From Burkholderiales bacterium (lineage in GTDB: Bacteria > Pseudomonadota > Gammaproteobacteria > Burkholderiales > SG8-41): DNA of 64,000 nucleotides. How positions within the stretch are numbered: the first letter of the stretch is position 1; each line of letters begins with the position of its first letter. Shown here piece by piece: positions 21,204 to 54,043 of the stretch. The notes beneath the pieces were generated by a model. The model did not search any database, had not been told where the DNA came from, and was given only the letters and a program-made list of their open reading frames with translations. The stretch covers positions 3,760 through 67,759 of the forward strand of contig JAURHM010000007.1 of assembly GCA_030833315.1 (NCBI GenBank), read 5' to 3'. The position numbers were made by a program, and so were the translations under genes.

Positions 21204-22226
21204 TTAACGTTTGATGATGCCGAGATCGGCCATCATTTTTTCCAGCAGGACATGCTCGGCCTCGAGGAACTTGCGGGTTTCCGCCGCGCCTTTGAAATCG
21301 CGGTCCCAGGCATTCTTCTCCAGCGCTTCTTTCCAGTCCGGATCATCGACCATGCGCGAAAACACGCGATCCCAGTAAGCGGTCTGGGCCGCAGTCAGGG
21401 CCTTGGGCGCGAGAAAACCGCGCCAGGCTGAATACACTGCATCAACGCCCTGCTCCTTGAGCGTCGGCACTGCGGCAAAAGCGCCGGGCTGGCGCTGCGG
21501 CGAACTGATGCCCAGCACGCGGATGCGGCCTTCCTGCAACAGCGGTAGCGCGTTGCCGATCGTGCCCGCCCAGACTTCAACGTGGCCGCCCAGCGTTGCC
21601 GTGGTACCGGCACCACCGGAAGAATAGACCACGATTTTCAATGCTTTCGGATCAATACCCGCGGCACGGGCAATCATGCCGAGCACGATATGGTTCTGAT
21701 TGCCGCGCGCCGGCGAAATACCGAAACTCACCGATCCGGGATCGGCCTTCAGCTTCGCCACAAGATCCTTGCCGCTCTGAATGCCCGAGGCCGTACGCAC
21801 CCACACCGCCACATATTCATGCATGACGATGTTCAGCGGCGTGATGTCCTGGTAACGCAGCGTACTTAAACCCATGATCTGGTTGGTCACCAGCGCGGTA
21901 TTCAGCGTTGAAATGTAATGGGCGTCGCCCGGATGCAGGTTCAGCGAACTCCAGGCCAGCGTGCCGCTGCCACCCGGCCTGTTGTTGACCGTAACGCTGG
22001 GCATGCCCGGCACCGACTGCAGGTATTTCTGGATCACCCGCGCCGACCGGTCCGCCGCACCACCCGCACCCGAAGACACAATGATTTCGACATTGCGTTC
22101 CGGTTTCCAGTCTTGTGCGTAAGCCGGCTGTGCGTACACCGAACATAAAACCATACCCGGCAGCAAGACGGCATGCTCCAGCGTACGCATGATCAACCCC
22201 GGAAACCGCTTGCCTTGATGAACCAT
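21204..22226 (-). CDS. Bug/TctC-family periplasmic solute receptor (divergent)
   Basis: VNNRPGGSG and a TctC-like C-terminal half. AGGAGG RBS before ATG 22226. Confidence 0.7.
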   Translation of the reverse strand: MVHQGKRFPGLIMRTLEHAVLLPGMVLCSVYAQPAYAQDWKPERNVEIIVSSGAGGAADRSARVIQKYLQSVPGMPSVTVNNRPGGSGTLAWSSLNLHPGDAHYISTLNTALVTNQIMGLSTLRYQDITPLNIVMHEYVAVWVRTASGIQSGKDLVAKLKADPGSVSFGISPARGNQNHIVLGMIARAAGIDPKALKIVVYSSGGAGTTATLGGHVEVWAGTIGNALPLLQEGRIRVLGISSPQRQPGAFAAVPTLKEQGVDAVYSAWRGFLAPKALTAAQTAYWDRVFSRMVDDPDWKEALEKNAWDRDFKGAAETRKFLEAEHVLLEKMMADLGIIKR

Positions 22227-22430
22227 GACTCCTCCTGTCAGTGGCATTTGAAACCCGGAGCATTATAGAGAGAAGCCGGTCACCTGAATGCATATTGCGG
22301 CAAGTCCAGACTACGGAAGGATGGGTCATCAGCGCCTGCTCACCGCCTCATTTGCACATCTCCATATGCTGGAAACATCAAAGAGACCGGACGGCCTGCG
22401 GAGTAGAATTCGATATCCCAAAATTCACTG

Positions 22431-43707: not shown

Positions 43708-44200
43708 CTAGGCGTCGTTGGCTGGCCAGGCGCTGGCATCAATGGTGTCGCGGCAGGCATGCCTTGTCGCATGACCAAGCACCGGTATCGTCACCGCAAG
43801 TCCGATCGGCGCGGTGACAAAACCGATCGCCGTCATGCCGACGATCAGCAGCGCCAGCGCAAACACCATGAAATTGCCAAAGACTTTACGTTTCTCGACC
43901 AGACAACGTGCGATGGAAGGTTGCCGCCCCCTCTCCAGCTGGCGGCTGATTGAACACAGGCCCATCGCCAGCACTGGCGCCACAAACATAAAACCGGAGA
44001 GCAGGATCACTGCCGACCTTGAGGCCGATGCCGGTAACGATCCATGACAGCACGGCGATGACGATCCCATATCCCAGGCTTTGCCGGGGTGCGCTTGGTA
44101 AATATGTCCAGCCCTTGCGCAGCCAGTTGAAGGGCATATCCGTGGTGAGCTGACGAAACGGCGCCGCAAAAGGCAGCGGCGCCTTTTCATTGGGCTGCAA
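43708..44200 (-). pseudogene. DUF2189-like integral membrane protein, frameshifted
   Basis: ORF 43886..44200 carries PFNWLRKGW..SLGYGIVIAVLSWIVTGIGL. The continuation AVILLSGFMFVAPVLAMGLCSISRQLERGRQPS...LGHATRHA is in the overlapping frame 43708..44190. The shift is near 44011-44016. Confidence 0.5.
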
Positions 44201-44255
44201 CTAAGCCTGTGCCTGACTGTCGGTCATCTCACACCCCCCGCACACTGCCAAACCG

Positions 44256-44792
44256 TTACTGCTGACCTTTCAGCAACAGCTCGACCACCTGTGGGGTAAT
44301 GTCGGCTGCGCGCTGATCCATCTGCTCCGGCGTCAGGTTGGCAATCGGATGCGGCATCACCAGAAACTTCAGATCCGGAACACCCCAGGTTTTTGCCATC
44401 GCCTTGCCGGTCACCGTGAACACGTGGGTCACTATGGACGCCGACGGAACACCATTCTGTTCAAACACTATGCTGTCGAGCACACTGCCCGAGCTGCATG
44501 ACCCTCAATCCCCGACACCGGCAACGATGATGTCGCAATTGGCCTTGTAATCGGCAACCATCTCCGGGCCGGGCGCGGAGCCGGCGCTTTTTTTCCGGCG
44601 GATCACATGCGACTTGGCGCCGTGTTCCTTCTCGAGGATCGCAGCGATGCGCATCAGCAACTGGTCCGAGTTGTGTTTGGTGTTGTCGACGAGGCCAATG
44701 CGCAGGCCTTTGAGTGACTTCGGCCGCGGCACAAAATTGATCGTGCGCGACTTCACTTCGGTGGTGGGATCGTAGATCTGGATGCTCATCAC
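44256..44792 (-). CDS. UGSC-motif selenoprotein (UxxC), function unknown; TGA 44505-44507 read as Sec
   Basis: Track ORFs 44505..44792 and 44256..44483 share one frame, interrupted by a single TGA. Read-through gives ...DIIVAGVGD-U-GSCSSGSVLDSIVFEQ... There is one RBS (AAGGAG before ATG 44789) and a SECIS-like hairpin just downstream of the TGA. Confidence 0.75.
44470..44499 (-). promoter_or_regulatory. candidate bacterial SECIS hairpin
   Basis: In the mRNA, 6-35 nt after the UGA: lower stem AUGC/GCAU, an internal loop, upper stem UCGGGC/GCUCGA (one G-U pair), and apical loop AGUGU. Confidence 0.55.
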
Positions 44793-44840
44793 ACTCTCCT
44801 TGTGTTATCAAATAAGTTATTGATTATTAATTAAAAATTA

Positions 44841-45878
44841 CTATGGCGTCTTGATTTCGTAAGTCACGCTCTGCGAACCGTTCTTGCCGCCCCAGCCGGG
44901 GATGTAGCAGGACTGCACCCCCGCCTTGCCGCCGGCGGCGATGACCAGCAAATCCTGCGGCGTGTGCACCAGCGTCTGCATGGTCGCTTCGGTTTCCGGG
45001 GTCACCGGACCGGGACGGATGTTGGCGCGCTGCATTTCAGCCTGCGACATCTTGCTGTGTTCAAACACATAGTTCTGCACATCTTCGCGCGACCAGCCCG
45101 CCTTCTGCATGATCAGCTGGTGCTCGCCGGCAAAGACCATCGCGTACTGCGGCTGACGGTTGGTGCCGGCCGAAAAACGCATCTGCGCGCAGGCCGTGGT
45201 CAGCACGCCTTCGGGTGTGGCACTGAGGCCGTTCGAATACTGGTGCACGCCGAGCGCCGCGAAAATCGTCACTGCGTTCTGATCGGGTTTGAATCCGCGC
45301 GTGGTGTGGAATGCCGGCCACGGGCTGTCTTCCTCGTTCTCGGCAATGCAGAAGGTGTATTTGCCGGGGTGGCCGAGGCTCGAGCGGTCGAGCACACCGG
45401 GTGTGGTGCCGATAACGTTCTGCATCACCAGGCGGATGGCTCGGCCGATGGTGGCATTGGCGCGCCAGCCCTGGCCGAATACATTGTCGCCGCTGTTGAT
45501 GTTGAGCTGTTTGGCAATCGGGCCGTTGACCAGCATGAACACGGCCGAGCCGCCGGTGCTGGTGGCCGGCCCGTGATAACCGTATTTCGGATCGGCCAGC
45601 GCCCGGATCGTCGCGGTGATCACCGGCATGTATTCCGGTTTGCAGCCGGCCATCACGGCATTGATCGCCACCTTCTCCGCGGTCACCGAGACCTGACGGT
45701 TCTCGATGAAGGACAGCTGCTCGTCGGGCTTGAAACCGCCGGCATCCAGCATCGCGGCGATACGTTCCGCAGTCGGCGGAATCACCGGCAGGCCGTCGGT
45801 CCAGCCGTTGGCGTAACAAAGCTCGATGGCACTGCCCAGATCGTCGACGGTGTGTCGGCGTGATTTCAGTTCGATCAT
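44841..45878 (-). CDS. conserved-looking hypothetical protein (345 aa), family not recognised
   Basis: GGAGG RBS 5 nt before ATG 45878. No signal peptide or TM segments. Motif-like stretches GWTDGLPVIPPT and NAVMAGCKPEYMP. Lies 48 nt upstream of the UGSC gene on the same strand. Confidence 0.6.
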   Translation of the reverse strand: MIELKSRRHTVDDLGSAIELCYANGWTDGLPVIPPTAERIAAMLDAGGFKPDEQLSFIENRQVSVTAEKVAINAVMAGCKPEYMPVITATIRALADPKYGYHGPATSTGGSAVFMLVNGPIAKQLNINSGDNVFGQGWRANATIGRAIRLVMQNVIGTTPGVLDRSSLGHPGKYTFCIAENEEDSPWPAFHTTRGFKPDQNAVTIFAALGVHQYSNGLSATPEGVLTTACAQMRFSAGTNRQPQYAMVFAGEHQLIMQKAGWSREDVQNYVFEHSKMSQAEMQRANIRPGPVTPETEATMQTLVHTPQDLLVIAAGGKAGVQSCYIPGWGGKNGSQSVTYEIKTP

Positions 45879-46096: not shown

Positions 46097-46918
46097 ATGC
46101 TGAATTCCATCCGCCGCACCGGCGCCGTACTGGCCATAGCGGCGCTGATATGCACCACGGCTGCGACCGCCCAGACCGCGCCGAAAATCAAGAATACCGG
46201 TTATGAACAAACCAAAACCGTGATGTATGTCGGCAACAGTTTCTACTACTACAACGACAGCATGCATTCAAAGGTGATCGGTCTGAACAGCGCTGCCGAT
46301 CCGCAGAACCGCAACCATTACCGCAGCACCTCGATCACCATCAGCGGATCGGGTTTCAACTGGCATGACATGGAATCGTATTTCCGCCCGAACGCCATCG
46401 CCTCCTACTCCTTTGTCGGCGACAACGAGATCCGCTTCAACAAATTCGACAAACCATTCGACGCGGTGATCATGAATGACTGCAGCCAGTGTCCGGTGCA
46501 TCCGCAGTTGAAGGGCATGTTCCATGAATATGCCGCGAAACACAGCGCAACAGTGCGCAAGCACGGCGCAAAGCCCATACTGTTCATGACTTGGGCCTAT
46601 GCCGACAAGCCGGAGATGACACAGCAGCTCGCCGAGGAATACACCATTGCCGGCAACAACAACGATGCGCTGGTGATTCCGGCCGGCCTCGCCTTTGCCA
46701 AAGCCATAGCCAAAAAACCGGGCATTTTGCTGTACGTGGCGGACAAACGGCATCCGAGCAAGCTCGGCACCTATCTTTCGGCGTGCACCATCTACGCCTC
46801 GCTTTACAACAAATCGCCGGCCGGCCTGAGCTACACCTTCGGCATTGATCCCGAAACCGCCAGGTTCCTGCAGGAAATCGCCTGGGAAACCGTGCAGGAA
46901 TATTACGGACGCTCATGA
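46097..46918 (+). CDS. secreted SGNH/GDSL-like hydrolase family protein (tentative)
   Basis: Signal peptide (AVLAIAALICTTAATAQT), a GNSF block, and a distal RHPS block. Confidence 0.45.
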   Translation: MLNSIRRTGAVLAIAALICTTAATAQTAPKIKNTGYEQTKTVMYVGNSFYYYNDSMHSKVIGLNSAADPQNRNHYRSTSITISGSGFNWHDMESYFRPNAIASYSFVGDNEIRFNKFDKPFDAVIMNDCSQCPVHPQLKGMFHEYAAKHSATVRKHGAKPILFMTWAYADKPEMTQQLAEEYTIAGNNNDALVIPAGLAFAKAIAKKPGILLYVADKRHPSKLGTYLSACTIYASLYNKSPAGLSYTFGIDPETARFLQEIAWETVQEYYGRS

Positions 46919-47256
46919 CTGAACTGATTCTGCTCGCGGTTCTTGCGGCACTCGGCTGGTTGTGGTGGGACAGCATGCAGGCGCGCGAAGCGGCGATCGC
47001 GGCGGCGCGTGCCGCCTGCAACGCCGAGGGCCTGCAGTTTCTGGACGACACCGTCGGCATCGCCAGCGTCAAACCGGCGCGCAATACCGACGGCCGGCTG
47101 CTGCTGCAACGGGCCTATGATTTTGAATTCAGTGACAACGGCGACAACCGTATCCGCGGCAGTGTGATCACGCTGGGTCGCCGTGTGATTTTGCTCAATG
47201 TCATGGCGCCCCGCCCCGCCGAGGCCAGCGCCTCCAACGTCATTCCCCTGCACTGA
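46915..47256 (+). CDS. DUF3301-family small membrane-anchored protein
   Basis: N-terminal TM segment MTELILLAVLAALGWLWW, then REAAIAAARAACNAEGLQFLDDTV. ATGA overlap with the upstream gene. Confidence 0.6.
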   Translation: MTELILLAVLAALGWLWWDSMQAREAAIAAARAACNAEGLQFLDDTVGIASVKPARNTDGRLLLQRAYDFEFSDNGDNRIRGSVITLGRRVILLNVMAPRPAEASASNVIPLH

Positions 47257-47440
47257 ATTGCTGACCATCGAAGGCGAGCGTGACGATATATGCGCGTTGG
47301 GCCAGACATTGGCGGCGCAGGATTTATACGAAATGCTGCCGCAATACCTGCGCACGAATTATGTGCAGGCAGGGGTCTGCTATTACGGCGTGTTCAGCGG
47401 CAAGCACCGGGAGAATCTGGTGCATCCGGCGGCACGGGAA
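47257..47440 (+). pseudogene. 3' remnant of an intracellular PHB depolymerase (PhaZ-type) gene
   Basis: The frame of ORF 47198..47515 encodes LLTIEGERDDICALGQTLAAQDLYEMLP...AGVCYYGVFSGKHRENL, which resembles the PhaZ C-terminus. There is no N-terminal 300+ aa, no start codon, and the GHYG His position reads CYYG. Confidence 0.5.
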
Positions 47441-48398: not shown

Positions 48399-48860
48399 TT
48401 ACAGCTTTTTCAGCTGGGCGAGCAGTTCTTCGCTGGTCGGGATCGTGCCTTGCGGATAGACCTTGGCGTAACGGATGATGCCTTTGGCATCAATCACGTA
48501 GGCCGCGCGCTTGTCGATGCCTCGCTCCTCGTTGAAGATGCCGTAGGCCTTGCCCACCGCACCATGCGGCCAGAAGTCCGACAGCAGCGGAAACGGCACA
48601 CCGCCAAGAAAGTCAGCCCATCCCTTCAAACTCGGCACCGGATCGATGCTCAGCTGGAGGATCTCGACATTCAGCTTCTTGAATTCTTCGTAGTTCTCAC
48701 GGAACCCACGGACTTGATTAGTTCATCCGCCGGTAAACGCAAAAGGCATGAATGCCACCACGACCGCACGCCCCTTGAAGCCGGACAGCGTGATTTTCTG
48801 GTCGGAATTGTGCGCGGCCAATGTGAAATCGGGTGCGGCACTGCCTGCTTGAATTTCCAT
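48399..48860 (-). CDS. selenocysteine-containing 1-Sec peroxiredoxin (AhpC/TSA-BCP-like); TGA 48723-48725 read as Sec
   Basis: The last 45 codons of track ORF 48723..49073 (MEIQ...PFAFTGG) and ORF 48399..48638 share one frame, interrupted by a single TGA. Read-through gives PFAFTGG-U-TNQVRGF, i.e. the peroxidatic position. AGGAGA RBS before ATG 48860. Confidence 0.75.
48689..48710 (-). promoter_or_regulatory. candidate bacterial SECIS hairpin
   Basis: In the mRNA, 13-34 nt after the UGA: CGU(G)GGUUC / GAACUACG stem with one bulged G and apical loop CGUGA. Confidence 0.5.
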
Positions 48861-53485: not shown

Positions 53486-54043
53486 ATGAAACGACGCGGA
53501 TTTTTGCAGGGACTGACGCTGGCGGCGTTCGGCAGCACATTCCACCATACGGCTGCCGCCGCCCCGGTCGGCACGATGAAGGAAATCCAGGCCATGCAGA
53601 ACAACTGGAAGACCCTGCTGGCCGCCGGCTTCAAGGCCCCGGCACCCACTGACGCACTCAAGCTGTCCAATGATGAATGGCGCAAACGCCTCGACAAGGC
53701 GCAGTTCAACGTGCTGCGCGAAGAGGGCACAGAGCGCGCCGGCAGCAGCCCGCTCAACGGCGAAAAACGCCCCGGCGTATTCGCCTGCGCCGGCTGCGAC
53801 CTGCCGCTGTTCACCTCCGAAATGAAATACGAATCGGGAACCGGCTGGCCGAGCTTTTTCACCACCATACCCGGCGTCTTCGCGACCAAGAAGGATTACC
53901 TGCTGTTCACACCACGGACCGAATACCACTGCGTACGCTGCGGCGGCCACCACGGTCATGTTTTTGACGACGGCCCGGCGCCGACCGGCCAGCGCTGGTG
54001 CAATAACGGCGTGGCGTTGAAGTTCATTCCCAAAACCGCCTGA
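53486..54043 (+). CDS. msrB: peptide-methionine (R)-S-oxide reductase MsrB with export signal
   Basis: Tat-like MKRRGFLQGLTLAAFG. Zn CxxC pairs (CAGCD, CVRCGGHHGHVFDDGP). Catalytic RWCNN. Confidence 0.8.
   Translation: MKRRGFLQGLTLAAFGSTFHHTAAAAPVGTMKEIQAMQNNWKTLLAAGFKAPAPTDALKLSNDEWRKRLDKAQFNVLREEGTERAGSSPLNGEKRPGVFACAGCDLPLFTSEMKYESGTGWPSFFTTIPGVFATKKDYLLFTPRTEYHCVRCGGHHGHVFDDGPAPTGQRWCNNGVALKFIPKTA

What the first reader, a model, noticed from the sequence alone, without database searches (positions are those of the whole stretch)
44256..44792. Split ORF pair is one UGSC-motif selenoprotein (in-frame UGA plus SECIS-like hairpin)
Seen: minus-strand track ORFs 44505..44792 and 44256..44483 are in the same frame and separated by one TGA only (44505-44507). 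Reading through gives 178 codons: ...ANCDIIVAGVGD-U-GSCSSGSVLDSIVFEQNG... There is a single good RBS (AAGGAG 6 nt before ATG 44789). The distal half has no RBS, and its track 'M' is a GTG valine codon. The UGA sits in a UxxC arrangement right after a hydrophobic strand-like run, which is the classic place for a redox Cys. Six to 35 nt downstream, the mRNA can form AUGC/GCAU plus UCGGGC/GCUCGA stems with apical loop AGUGU, which matches bacterial SECIS geometry. Knowledge: as far as I recall, a 'UGSC-containing' selenoprotein family of unknown function was defined from marine metagenome mining, and no biochemical role has been assigned. Automatic annotation would report two fragments or a pseudogene here.
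Basis: partly seen in the sequence, partly recalled or inferred. Interest (0 to 1): 0.8.

Follow-up and report, generated by a model that had tools for sequence, protein, structure and literature searches.

The report
Known UGSC-family selenoprotein gene
The two "split" ORFs are one gene for a selenocysteine-containing protein of the already-described UGSC family; the call is correct but not new, and what the family does is still unknown.

Summary
On the minus strand, ATG 44789 to TAA 44256 is one 177-codon frame broken only by TGA 44507-44505. Read through, it matches Pfam PF24696 "UGSC family" end to end (E 4e-58) and passes NCBIfam NF041046 "UGSC family (seleno)protein".

- **TGA is translated.** 120 metagenomic relatives carry TGA at the same codon, each followed by a conserved ~80-codon continuation. 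More distant homologues carry Cys there.
- **The hairpin is a real SECIS.** A 7-bp hairpin at nt 16-32 after the U of UGA has loop G23-U24. It is fully paired in 88 of 119 Sec forms and 0 of 82 Cys forms, with compensatory synonymous changes.
- **TGA is otherwise the commonest stop in the window.**

Additional points from this analysis:
- The upstream 345-aa gene, which matches no Pfam or NCBIfam model, is an almost obligatory partner and is fused to UGSC in some lineages.
- A confident AlphaFold model is flavodoxin/Rossmann-like. It is not thioredoxin-like, as the literature had guessed.
- Weak, recurrent sub-threshold hits point to GrdB/PrdB selenoproteins.
- A second selenoprotein gene, Prx-type, lies at 48860-48399.

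The function remains inferred.

The parts
44256..44789 (-). Single UGSC-family selenoprotein gene: 177 residues, Sec at residue 95, stop TAA 44258-44256
   Evidence: Translation. PF24696 match at E 4e-58 covering profile positions 1-171 of 172. NF041046 at 149 bits against a cut-off of 125.
44796..44801 (-). Shine-Dalgarno AAGGAG, 6 nt upstream of ATG 44789
   Evidence: Read directly from the sequence. There is no comparable site ahead of the distal half.
44505..44507 (-). In-frame UGA decoded as selenocysteine (the U of U-G-S-C)
   Evidence: TGA sits at the same codon in 120 of 120 pattern-selected metagenomic relatives, each with a conserved continuation. Full-length homologues have Cys there.
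44476..44492 (-). SECIS core hairpin, nt 16-32 counted from the U of UGA: 5' arm 44492-44486, loop GUG 44485-44483 (G23, U24), 3' arm 44482-44476
   Evidence: Pair counts and the Cys-form control. Covariation statistics. RNAalifold. Same register as the E. coli minimal SECIS.
44470..44499 (-). Extended hairpin including the lower stem AUGC (44499-44496) / GCAU (44473-44470). This stem is lineage-specific.
   Evidence: Folds in the window. Family-wide pairing of these columns is only 29-90% and shows no covariation.
44841..45878 (-). Co-transcribed 345-aa partner gene (ATG 45878, stop TAG 44843-44841), 51 nt upstream of the UGSC start. It matches no Pfam or NCBIfam family.
   Evidence: A homologue is present in 96 of 120 Sec loci and 80 of 80 Cys loci. 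It is fused to the UGSC domain in 13 loci. There are at least 8000 homologues without any Pfam domain. Conserved W26-x-D-G-L-P, A-G-C79-x-P, R139, R146 and E180.

Best explanation
Window 44789-44256 (minus strand) is one gene for a 177-residue UGSC-family selenoprotein.

Shown:
- UGA 44507-44505 is not a stop here. The reading frame, the protein family and the UGA are conserved together in more than 120 relatives, and Cys replaces U in others.
- A 17-nt stem-loop at nt 16-32 downstream has G23 and U24 in its loop. In UGA-bearing members it is held by selection on synonymous sites and by compensatory changes. In Cys members it is not.

Inferred from established knowledge of bacterial Sec decoding: this hairpin recruits SelB-GTP-Sec-tRNASec to the ribosome paused at the UGA.

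Inferred from a confident AlphaFold model of a 59%-identical Cys homologue: the protein is a (beta-alpha)5 flavodoxin/Rossmann-like domain. The U-G-S-C pair sits at the N-terminal cap of helix 3, which is typical geometry for a redox-active selenol/thiol pair.

Inferred from near-obligatory adjacency, overlapping stop/start codons and natural fusions: it works as the redox subunit of a two-protein enzyme with the upstream 345-aa protein (conserved Cys79, D28, R139, R146, E180). Sec95 would attack a substrate or an oxidised Cys on the partner, Cys98 would resolve the selenenyl-sulfide, and a cellular dithiol system (thioredoxin in some lineages) would recycle it. The variable catabolic neighbourhoods suggest a role in metabolism of small organic acids.

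Approximate confidence: identity as a UGSC selenoprotein with a working SECIS 0.95; two-subunit redox enzyme 0.5; any specific chemistry 0.2 or less.
For: - **Family.** PF24696 E 4e-58; NF041046 above its cut-off.
- **U column.** Close relatives (63-76% identity) are all called as ending at G(V/I)GD. Full-length relatives (50-59%) read GVGDCGSCSS. Cys95 and Cys98 are invariant among 27 full-length sequences.
- **TGA conservation.** 120 loci carry TGA plus a conserved continuation.
- **SECIS.** The stem is fully paired in 88 of 119 Sec forms and has at least 6 pairs in 108 of 119. No Cys form of 82 is fully paired. G23 occurs in 114 of 119 and U24 in 106 of 119.
- **Same-peptide control.** With the identical peptide GSCSSGSVLD, 32 of 32 Sec forms freeze TCG-GG(C/G)-AGT-GT(G/C)-CTC-GA. 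L084 and L091 carry the double synonymous compensatory change. The Cys forms L001 and L002 use other codons.
- **Covariation.** 98 double-change cells against 36 in shuffles, 0 of 500 shuffles reaching it. RNAalifold finds the same helix.
- **TGA is a normal stop here.** 10 of 19 Pfam-supported genes end in it.
- **Register.** It matches the E. coli minimal SECIS at nt 15-31 with G23/U24.
- **Fold.** pLDDT 91.5, pTM 0.88.
- **Partner.**
- **Thioredoxin system in some operons.**
- **Literature.**
- **Independent second Sec gene in the window.**
Against: - No selA, selB, selD or tRNA-Sec in the 64-kb window. This is uninformative for a multi-megabase genome.
- The hairpin alone is not more stable than shuffled sequence, and Rfam is silent.
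- There is no bulged U17, which E. coli SelB requires.
- The functional part is inference only. The partner model is mediocre (pLDDT 69.8) and has no structural match.
- Thioredoxin genes are near UGSC in only 2 of 80 Cys loci and 0 of 120 Sec loci.
- Neighbourhoods are heterogeneous.
Confidence: 0.9

Rival explanations
1. It is a pseudogene or an assembly or sequencing error. On this view a nonsense TGA broke a former Cys-type UGSC gene, and the two ORFs are dead fragments.
For: Gene callers report two fragments in every public copy. Full-length Cys homologues exist.
Against: The identical N-terminal piece occurs on 20 independent contigs. TGA sits at the same codon in 120 diverse loci, always followed by ~80 conserved in-frame codons. 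The stem codons are under synonymous constraint with compensatory changes. GOS counted 255 Sec forms against 21 Cys forms of this family.
Confidence: 0.01
2. There are two separate polypeptides. Translation would end at UGA, giving a 94-aa product, and the distal 75-82 residues would be made independently and assemble as a split protein.
For: A GTG lies 24 nt after the TGA.
Against: There is no RBS before the distal part, and that GTG is the Val codon inside conserved G-S-V-L-D. The break would fall between strand 3 and helix 3 of a single compact domain and would separate U from its CxxC-type partner Cys. Cys homologues are continuous. The conserved hairpin has SECIS geometry.
Confidence: 0.02
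3. UGA is read as a standard amino acid (Trp, Gly or Cys) through genome-wide reassignment or leaky suppression, not as Sec.
For: Some database entries show W in this column (P0003; P0201, P0203 and P0204 for the Prx gene).
Against: Those W residues come from gene callers using an alternative code on a TGA; L218 does not translate to P0204 under table 11. TGA closes 10 of 19 Pfam-supported genes and 36 of 60 long frames in the window. The homologous residue is an invariant redox Cys. A SECIS-type hairpin is selected only in TGA forms.
Confidence: 0.03
4. This is a rival at the level of function. UGSC would be a stand-alone thioredoxin-fold thiol-disulfide oxidoreductase, as the literature guessed, and its neighbour would be incidental.
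For: [quoted passage not shown] A selenoprotein Prx lies 4 kb away.
Against: The confident model is (beta-alpha)5. Its best PDB matches are flavodoxin, B12-binding, DHH, PurE and lumazine-synthase-type domains, and no Trx-fold protein is in the top 50. The partner is adjacent in 176 of 200 loci and is fused to UGSC in 13.
Confidence: 0.1

Closest known systems
UGSC-containing selenoprotein family (Pfam PF24696; NCBIfam NF041046; Zhang and Gladyshev, Olavius symbiont 2007 and GOS 2008)
   Same: Full-length HMM match above the curated thresholds. U-G-S-C motif at the family's conserved column. Sec forms outnumber Cys forms. The source looks non-marine or soil-like. The fusion to a second conserved domain ('Unknown_1' in the GOS paper) is probably the 345-aa partner described here; I could not view Figure S1A of the GOS paper to confirm this.
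   Different: Nothing essential. This is one more member, from an uncultured Burkholderiales-like bacterium (the partner is 82-83% identical to Burkholderiales MAG proteins). The predicted fold disagrees with the published 'Trx-like' guess.
E. coli fdhF-type bacterial SECIS (SelB-binding minimal hairpin, nt 15-31 after UGA)
   Same: A hairpin immediately downstream inside the ORF. The upper stem-loop occupies nt 16-32. G23 and U24 are in the apical loop at the same distance from UGA.
   Different: There is no bulged U17; position 17 is a paired C. The loop is 3 nt (or 5 if the A22-U26 pair is open). No Rfam model matches.
Selenoprotein B subunits of Stickland reductases (GrdB/PrdB/GrdF; PF07355, TIGR01918)
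   Same: A UxxC selenocysteine motif. Recurrent weak HMM similarity around the motif: PrdB in 4 of 26 members (best E 7e-4), GrdB in 4, GrdF in 2, TIGR01918 in 2. Works with a second protein. The thioredoxin system is encoded in some operons, as I recall for grd operons (not checked here).
   Different: All hits are far below the curated cut-offs. UGSC is half the size or less. The partner shows no similarity to the pyruvoyl proproteins PrdA or GrdE. The hosts are aerobic soil and freshwater bacteria. Thioredoxin linkage is rare.
Sec-containing peroxiredoxin ('Prx, TxxU' class), the neighbouring gene at 48860-48399
   Same: It is another known redox selenoprotein class, split by gene callers in the same way.
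   Different: It is an unrelated fold and family (AhpC-TSA). It is not part of the UGSC operon.

Membership tests
UGSC family (PF24696 / NF041046) | Full-length match to the curated HMMs above their cut-offs | tested here: met
   PF24696: 196.8 bits against a cut-off of 25, profile positions 1-171 of 172. NF041046: 149 bits against a cut-off of 125.
UGSC family (PF24696 / NF041046) | (U/C)-G-S-C motif at the conserved column after G-(V/I)-G-D | tested here: met
   The window reads GVGD-U-GSCSS. G91, G93, D94, C95, G96, S97, C98 and S99 are invariant in 27 full-length sequences.
Bacterial selenoprotein gene | In-frame UGA conserved in orthologues, aligned with Cys in other homologues, with coding conservation downstream | tested here: met
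   120 TGA loci, with Cys in the 50-59%-identity homologues.
Bacterial selenoprotein gene | SECIS hairpin just downstream of UGA, with a G in the apical loop and evolutionary support | tested here: met
   Cys-form control: 0 of 82 fully paired.
Bacterial selenoprotein gene | Host encodes selA, selB, selC (tRNA-Sec) and selD | not testable with these tools
   Only 64 kb is available. No tRNA was found, and none of the 10 larger ORFs tested is SelA, SelB or SelD. Indirect support comes from a second conserved TGA-containing Prx gene in the window.
Bacterial selenoprotein gene | Selenium actually incorporated (75Se labelling or MS) | not testable with these tools
   This needs an experiment.
E. 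coli-type SECIS | Upper stem-loop about 11 nt after UGA, with G23/U24 in the loop | tested here: met
   Stem at nt 16-22 / 26-32. G23 in 114 of 119 and U24 in 106 of 119. Definition taken from PMC8659212.
E. coli-type SECIS | Bulged U17 | tested here: not met
   Position 17 is C, paired with G31, in 104 of 119 sequences.
Thioredoxin fold (literature guess for UGSC) | Trx-type topology or structural matches to Trx-fold proteins | tested here: not met
   The AF2 model of homologue P0001 (pLDDT 91.5) is (beta-alpha)5. The Foldseek PDB top 50 contains no Trx-fold protein, and the best hits are generic three-layer alpha/beta domains with TM <= 0.50. This rests on a predicted model of a homologue, not an experimental structure.
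GrdB/PrdB selenoprotein B superfamily (PF07355 / TIGR01918) | HMM match above the curated cut-off | tested here: not met
   Best E 7e-4, with scores far below the cut-offs (12.7 bits against 300 for the window protein). No PF07355 hit at E<=1.
GrdB/PrdB selenoprotein B superfamily (PF07355 / TIGR01918) | Remote homology shown by profile-profile or structural comparison | tested here: inconclusive
   Four related models are hit sub-threshold, each by 2-4 of the 26 members. No GrdB or PrdB sequences or structures were available for hhalign or Foldseek.
GrdB/PrdB selenoprotein B superfamily (PF07355 / TIGR01918) | Pyruvoyl-forming partner proprotein (PrdA/GrdE) | tested here: not met
   The partner has no Pfam or NCBIfam match, even at E<=1.

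The most novel reading that the evidence does not exclude
UGSC and its 345-aa partner would form a previously unrecognised two-subunit selenoenzyme, fused into one chain in some lineages. It would be widespread in aerobic soil and freshwater bacteria and distantly related in its selenium subunit to the GrdB/PrdB 'protein B' reductases of anaerobic Stickland fermenters. It would carry out a thiol/selenol-driven reductive step on a small organic acid or amine taken up by the neighbouring TctC, TRAP or ABC systems. The partner family, with at least 8000 members and no Pfam or NCBIfam model, would then be a new catalytic domain.
Probability: 0.2. Interest if true: 0.6.

Novelty: already known. Interest (0 to 1): 0.25.

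Why it matters
For this window, the result is mainly a correct re-annotation. One selenoprotein gene, and a second Prx-type one nearby, replace four fragment calls, and the organism is flagged as a selenocysteine user.

More broadly, UGSC is among the most abundant prokaryotic selenoprotein families, yet no function has been assigned. Three results here give concrete starting points for assigning one:
- the near-obligatory, sometimes fused, 345-aa partner that has no family model;
- the non-thioredoxin fold;
- the clean SECIS covariation data set.

None of this changes the fact that the finding as stated is an instance of a known family.

Tried and rejected
- **Rfam.** A gathering-threshold search of the whole window and an E<=10 search of 44200-44850 both found nothing.
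- **Single-sequence folding.** The z-scores are not significant, so thermodynamic stability alone cannot support the hairpin.
- **Genome-contig scan.** The tool chose the Cys pattern GVGDCGSCS, so it returned only Cys forms. I reused them as the negative control.
- **Structure of the window protein.** I used P0001 instead.
- **PDB searches.** Sequence searches for both proteins found nothing below E 0.4. Foldseek on the partner gave only meaningless matches with TM ~0.2.
- **Thioredoxin-system hypothesis.** It was suggested by two plasmid records, but the systematic test found it in only 2 of 80 Cys loci and 0 of 120 Sec loci. I rejected it as a general feature.
- **Unbiased neighbour clustering.** All-vs-all ORF clustering collapsed into one giant cluster because of spurious high-GC ORFs. 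I replaced it with Pfam-annotated gene calls.
- **Sec machinery.** Not found among the 10 larger ORFs of the window.
- **Downstream genes.** The DUF2189 membrane protein and the methyltransferase downstream are not conserved neighbours (0 loci).

Full report
**1. Observation**

On the minus strand, AAGGAG (44801-44796) is followed after 6 nt by ATG 44789. The frame then runs to TAA 44258-44256 and is interrupted only by TGA 44507-44505. The two mechanical ORFs 44505..44792 and 44256..44483 share this frame. The 'start' of the distal ORF is GTG 44483-44481, which is the Val of G-S-V-L-D. Read through, the product has 177 residues...ANCDIIVAGVGD-U-GSCSSGSVLDSIVFEQNG...

On its own it is no more stable than dinucleotide shuffles (z -0.2 and -0.6), and Rfam reports nothing even at E<=10.

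**2. Identity**

With U replaced by C for the search tools, the protein matches Pfam PF24696 'UGSC family' over the whole profile (E 4e-58). It also exceeds the curated cut-off of NCBIfam NF041046 'UGSC family (seleno)protein' (149 against 125 bits).

The literature describes this family:
- In 2008 it was one of the major families in the GOS data, with 255 Sec forms against 21 Cys forms. It was commoner in non-marine samples, was thought 'likely' to be Trx-like, and was sometimes fused to a domain called 'Unknown_1' (PMC2398784).
- A 2026 review still lists it, with NF041046, among functionally uncharacterised selenoproteins (PMC13188914).

RefSeq plasmid records already carry the product name 'UGSC family (seleno)protein' in 6 of 8 hits. 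By contrast, all six public copies of this very locus, in ENA, JGI and Logan assemblies, are split into 94-aa and 75-aa calls.

**3. Is the UGA translated?**

A protein search gave two classes of relatives:
- Full-length proteins at 50-59% identity that read GVGD-C-GSCSS.
- Closer relatives at 63-76% identity, all called as ending exactly at G(V/I)GD.

In 27 full-length sequences, G91, G93, D94, C95, G96, S97, C98 and S99 are invariant.

I then scanned metagenomes with a DNA pattern that requires the in-frame TGA. In every one the frame continues past the TGA into the conserved C-terminal half, about 80 codons in most loci.

TGA is otherwise the commonest stop in the window. It closes 10 of 19 Pfam-supported genes and 36 of 60 long open frames. 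This excludes genome-wide reassignment. Together these results exclude a pseudogene, a sequencing error, a natural end at this position and a split protein.

**4. The SECIS element**

Positions are numbered from the U of UGA.

- The helix at 16-22 / 26-32 is fully paired in 88 of 119 distinct Sec-form sequences and has at least 6 pairs in 108.
- G23 is present in 114 of 119 and U24 in 106 of 119.
- None of 82 Cys-form sequences is fully paired, and these have C at position 23.

The Cys set differs in peptide context and GC content, so I compared sequences with identical peptides. For GSCSSGSVLD, all 32 Sec forms use TCG-GG(C/G)-AGT-GT(G/C)-CTC-GA, while codons outside the stem vary freely. The only two stem variants, L084 and L091, carry the double synonymous change GGC>GGG together with GTG>GTC, which swaps a C-G pair for G-C. 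The two Cys forms with the same peptide, L001 and L002, use other Ser and Gly codons and pair at only 5 of 7 positions. Across subfamilies, amino-acid changes co-vary so that pairing is kept (G..VL becomes C..LH, and so on).

The formal test on 108 sequences gave:

| Measure | Observed | Control |
|---|---|---|
| Cells paired | 93.8% | 78.5% in shuffles (0/500 reach it) |
| Double-change cells | 98 | 36 in shuffles (0/500 reach it) |
| Cells paired, slid registers | - | 18-53% |

RNAalifold predicts the same helix independently.

The register matches the E. coli minimal SECIS (nt 15-31, G23/U24 in the loop; PMC8659212). The bulged U17 is absent. In window coordinates, the 5' arm is 44492-44486, the loop 44485-44483 and the 3' arm 44482-44476.

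**5. Sec machinery**

No tRNA and no SelA, SelB or SelD among ten larger ORFs are present in the 64 kb. This says little for a genome of several megabases.

There is independent support. A second gene about 4 kb away (ATG 48860, TGA 48725-48723, TAA 48401-48399) is a peroxiredoxin with U at the peroxidatic-Cys position (F-T-G-G-U, the known 'Prx TxxU' class). Cys homologues carry C at that column. Three relatives keep TGA at the same codon with the frame conserved.

**6. Function: what the evidence adds**

(a) *Partner.* The gene immediately upstream (45878-44841, 345 aa, 51 nt from the UGSC start) has no Pfam or NCBIfam match, even at E<=1.
- A homologue lies next to UGSC in 96 of 120 Sec loci and 80 of 80 Cys loci. 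Many of the Sec loci are short contigs.
- The two genes often overlap at their stop and start codons, and the order is sometimes reversed.
- In 13 loci the two are fused into one chain. Residues 265-610 of the L101 long form align to the partner at 30% identity, E 4e-48. This is probably the 'Unknown_1' fusion of the GOS paper.
- The partner family has at least 8000 members.
- Its conserved core, seen over 106 sequences down to 30% identity, is W26-x-D28-G-L-P31, A-G-C79-x-P, R139, R146 and E180, with Cys79 in 92%.

(b) *Fold.* AlphaFold2 on the 59%-identical Cys homologue P0001 gives a confident model (pLDDT 91.5, pTM 0.88). It has five beta-alpha units, with Cys95 at the N-cap of helix 3 directly after strand 3. 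Foldseek against the PDB finds nothing below E 1e-3. The best matches are generic three-layer alpha/beta domains (flavodoxin, B12-binding, DHH, PurE, lumazine synthase) with TM <= 0.50. No Trx-fold protein is in the top 50. The published Trx-like guess is therefore not supported. The partner model is mediocre (pLDDT 69.8) and has no credible match.

(c) *Remote similarity.* The window protein and several relatives give sub-threshold hits to four related models of the UxxC selenoprotein-B subunits of Stickland reductases: PrdB (4 of 26 members, best E 7e-4), GrdB (4), GrdF (2) and TIGR01918 (2). This is a lead and does not establish membership.

(d) *Context.* Two plasmid records place trxB, with or without trxA, in the same gene string. 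One metagenomic operon has a TrxB-sized flavoprotein. Systematically, however, the thioredoxin system is near UGSC in only 2 of 80 Cys loci and 0 of 120 Sec loci. The remaining neighbours are variable catabolic genes: SDRs, TctC/TRAP/ABC uptake systems, CoA-transferases, acyl-CoA dehydrogenases, FAA hydrolase and LigB. The window's own downstream genes, a DUF2189 membrane protein and a methyltransferase, are not conserved neighbours.

**7. Mechanism proposed**

*Shown:* one ORF, a conserved UGA, a selected hairpin, an invariant U/C-x-x-C pair, and an obligatory partner.

*Inferred:*
- SelB-dependent Sec insertion.
- A selenol/thiol redox couple at a helix N-cap on a flavodoxin-like scaffold.
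- UGSC acting as the redox subunit of a two-protein enzyme. Sec95 would attack a substrate or an oxidised partner Cys79, Cys98 would resolve the selenenyl-sulfide, and a cellular dithiol would recycle it.

The specific chemistry is unknown. A GrdB/PrdB-like reductive cleavage is the most interesting possibility, and I put it at about 0.2.

**8. Verdict**

It concerns a family that has been described since 2007-2008 and is handled by NCBI's annotation models, so novelty is 'already known' and interest is low. The remaining value lies in correcting the annotation of two selenoprotein genes, and in the family-level leads: the partner family with no model, the non-Trx fold, and the possible link to selenoprotein B.

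Noticed in passing
window 48399-48860, minus strand (TGA 48725-48723): A second split ORF pair is one Prx-type selenoprotein of 153 residues, with U at the peroxidatic-Cys position (FMPFAFTGG-U-TNQV, the known 'Prx TxxU' class). Public gene calls split it into 45-aa and 79-aa pieces. Cys homologues have C in that column. Three relatives (L216-L218) keep TGA at the same codon. A small GUUC/GAAC hairpin with a CGUG(A/C) loop follows, but it shows no covariation in the few sequences examined.
   Followed up: partly
L100, L101, L106, L115, L123, L152, L167, L169, L175, L182, L185, L187, L191: These are long-form UGSC proteins. They have an N-terminal UGSC domain with motifs GVGD-U-GSCTWWGSHD or GSCTW(A/T)GVSGY, fused to a C-terminal domain homologous to the 345-aa partner. 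L101 seems to carry an N-terminal signal-like hydrophobic segment. The SECIS hairpin is shifted or different in the GSCTWAGVSGY subgroup (CCGGCGUGUCCGG).
   Followed up: partly
L207 (Roseovarius pTHAF8_b), L208 (Arthrobacter plasmid), L213: In some distant Cys-form members the pair sits in one gene string with thioredoxin reductase, with or without thioredoxin (trxB-trxA-partner-UGSC, or partner-UGSC-trxB), or with a 316-aa Pyr_redox_2 protein. The association is rare overall: 2 of 80 Cys loci and 0 of 120 Sec loci.
   Followed up: yes
window 44160-44183: A perfect 8-bp GC hairpin (GGCGCCGC...GCGGCGCC) lies 73 nt downstream of the UGSC stop. The scan flags it as terminator-like only for the + strand (tail TTTTCATT). 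On the minus strand the tail is GTTTCGTC. It may end the partner-UGSC transcript. It also overlaps the longest possible start of the DUF2189 ORF (43708-44190), which public calls begin later, giving 100 aa.
   Followed up: no
window 53486-54043 (+), from L201 747-1304: A SelR/MsrB methionine-sulfoxide reductase gene of 185 aa lies in the same region as the two selenoprotein genes. It appears to be an ordinary, uninterrupted ORF.
   Followed up: no
window 21204-22247 (-); also the TctC calls in L201, L209, L211, L213 and L216: Several TctC/Bug-family periplasmic receptors occur in the window and in relatives' loci. The closest named homologues of the partner and the Prx gene are from Burkholderiales MAGs. 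The window is therefore probably from an uncultured betaproteobacterium with about 61% GC.
   Followed up: partly
protein database entries P0003, P0201, P0203, P0204: Some public gene calls show W at the Sec column because the contig was translated with a UGA=Trp code. Such 'full-length W' entries are hidden Sec forms and can mislead Sec/Cys counts.
   Followed up: partly
window 46097-46918 (+) and 46903-47355 (-): Between the UGSC operon and the SDR and Prx genes lie a 273-aa protein with a weak DUF4886 match and a DUF3301 protein. Both are conserved in the same-species contigs and neither is characterised.
   Followed up: no
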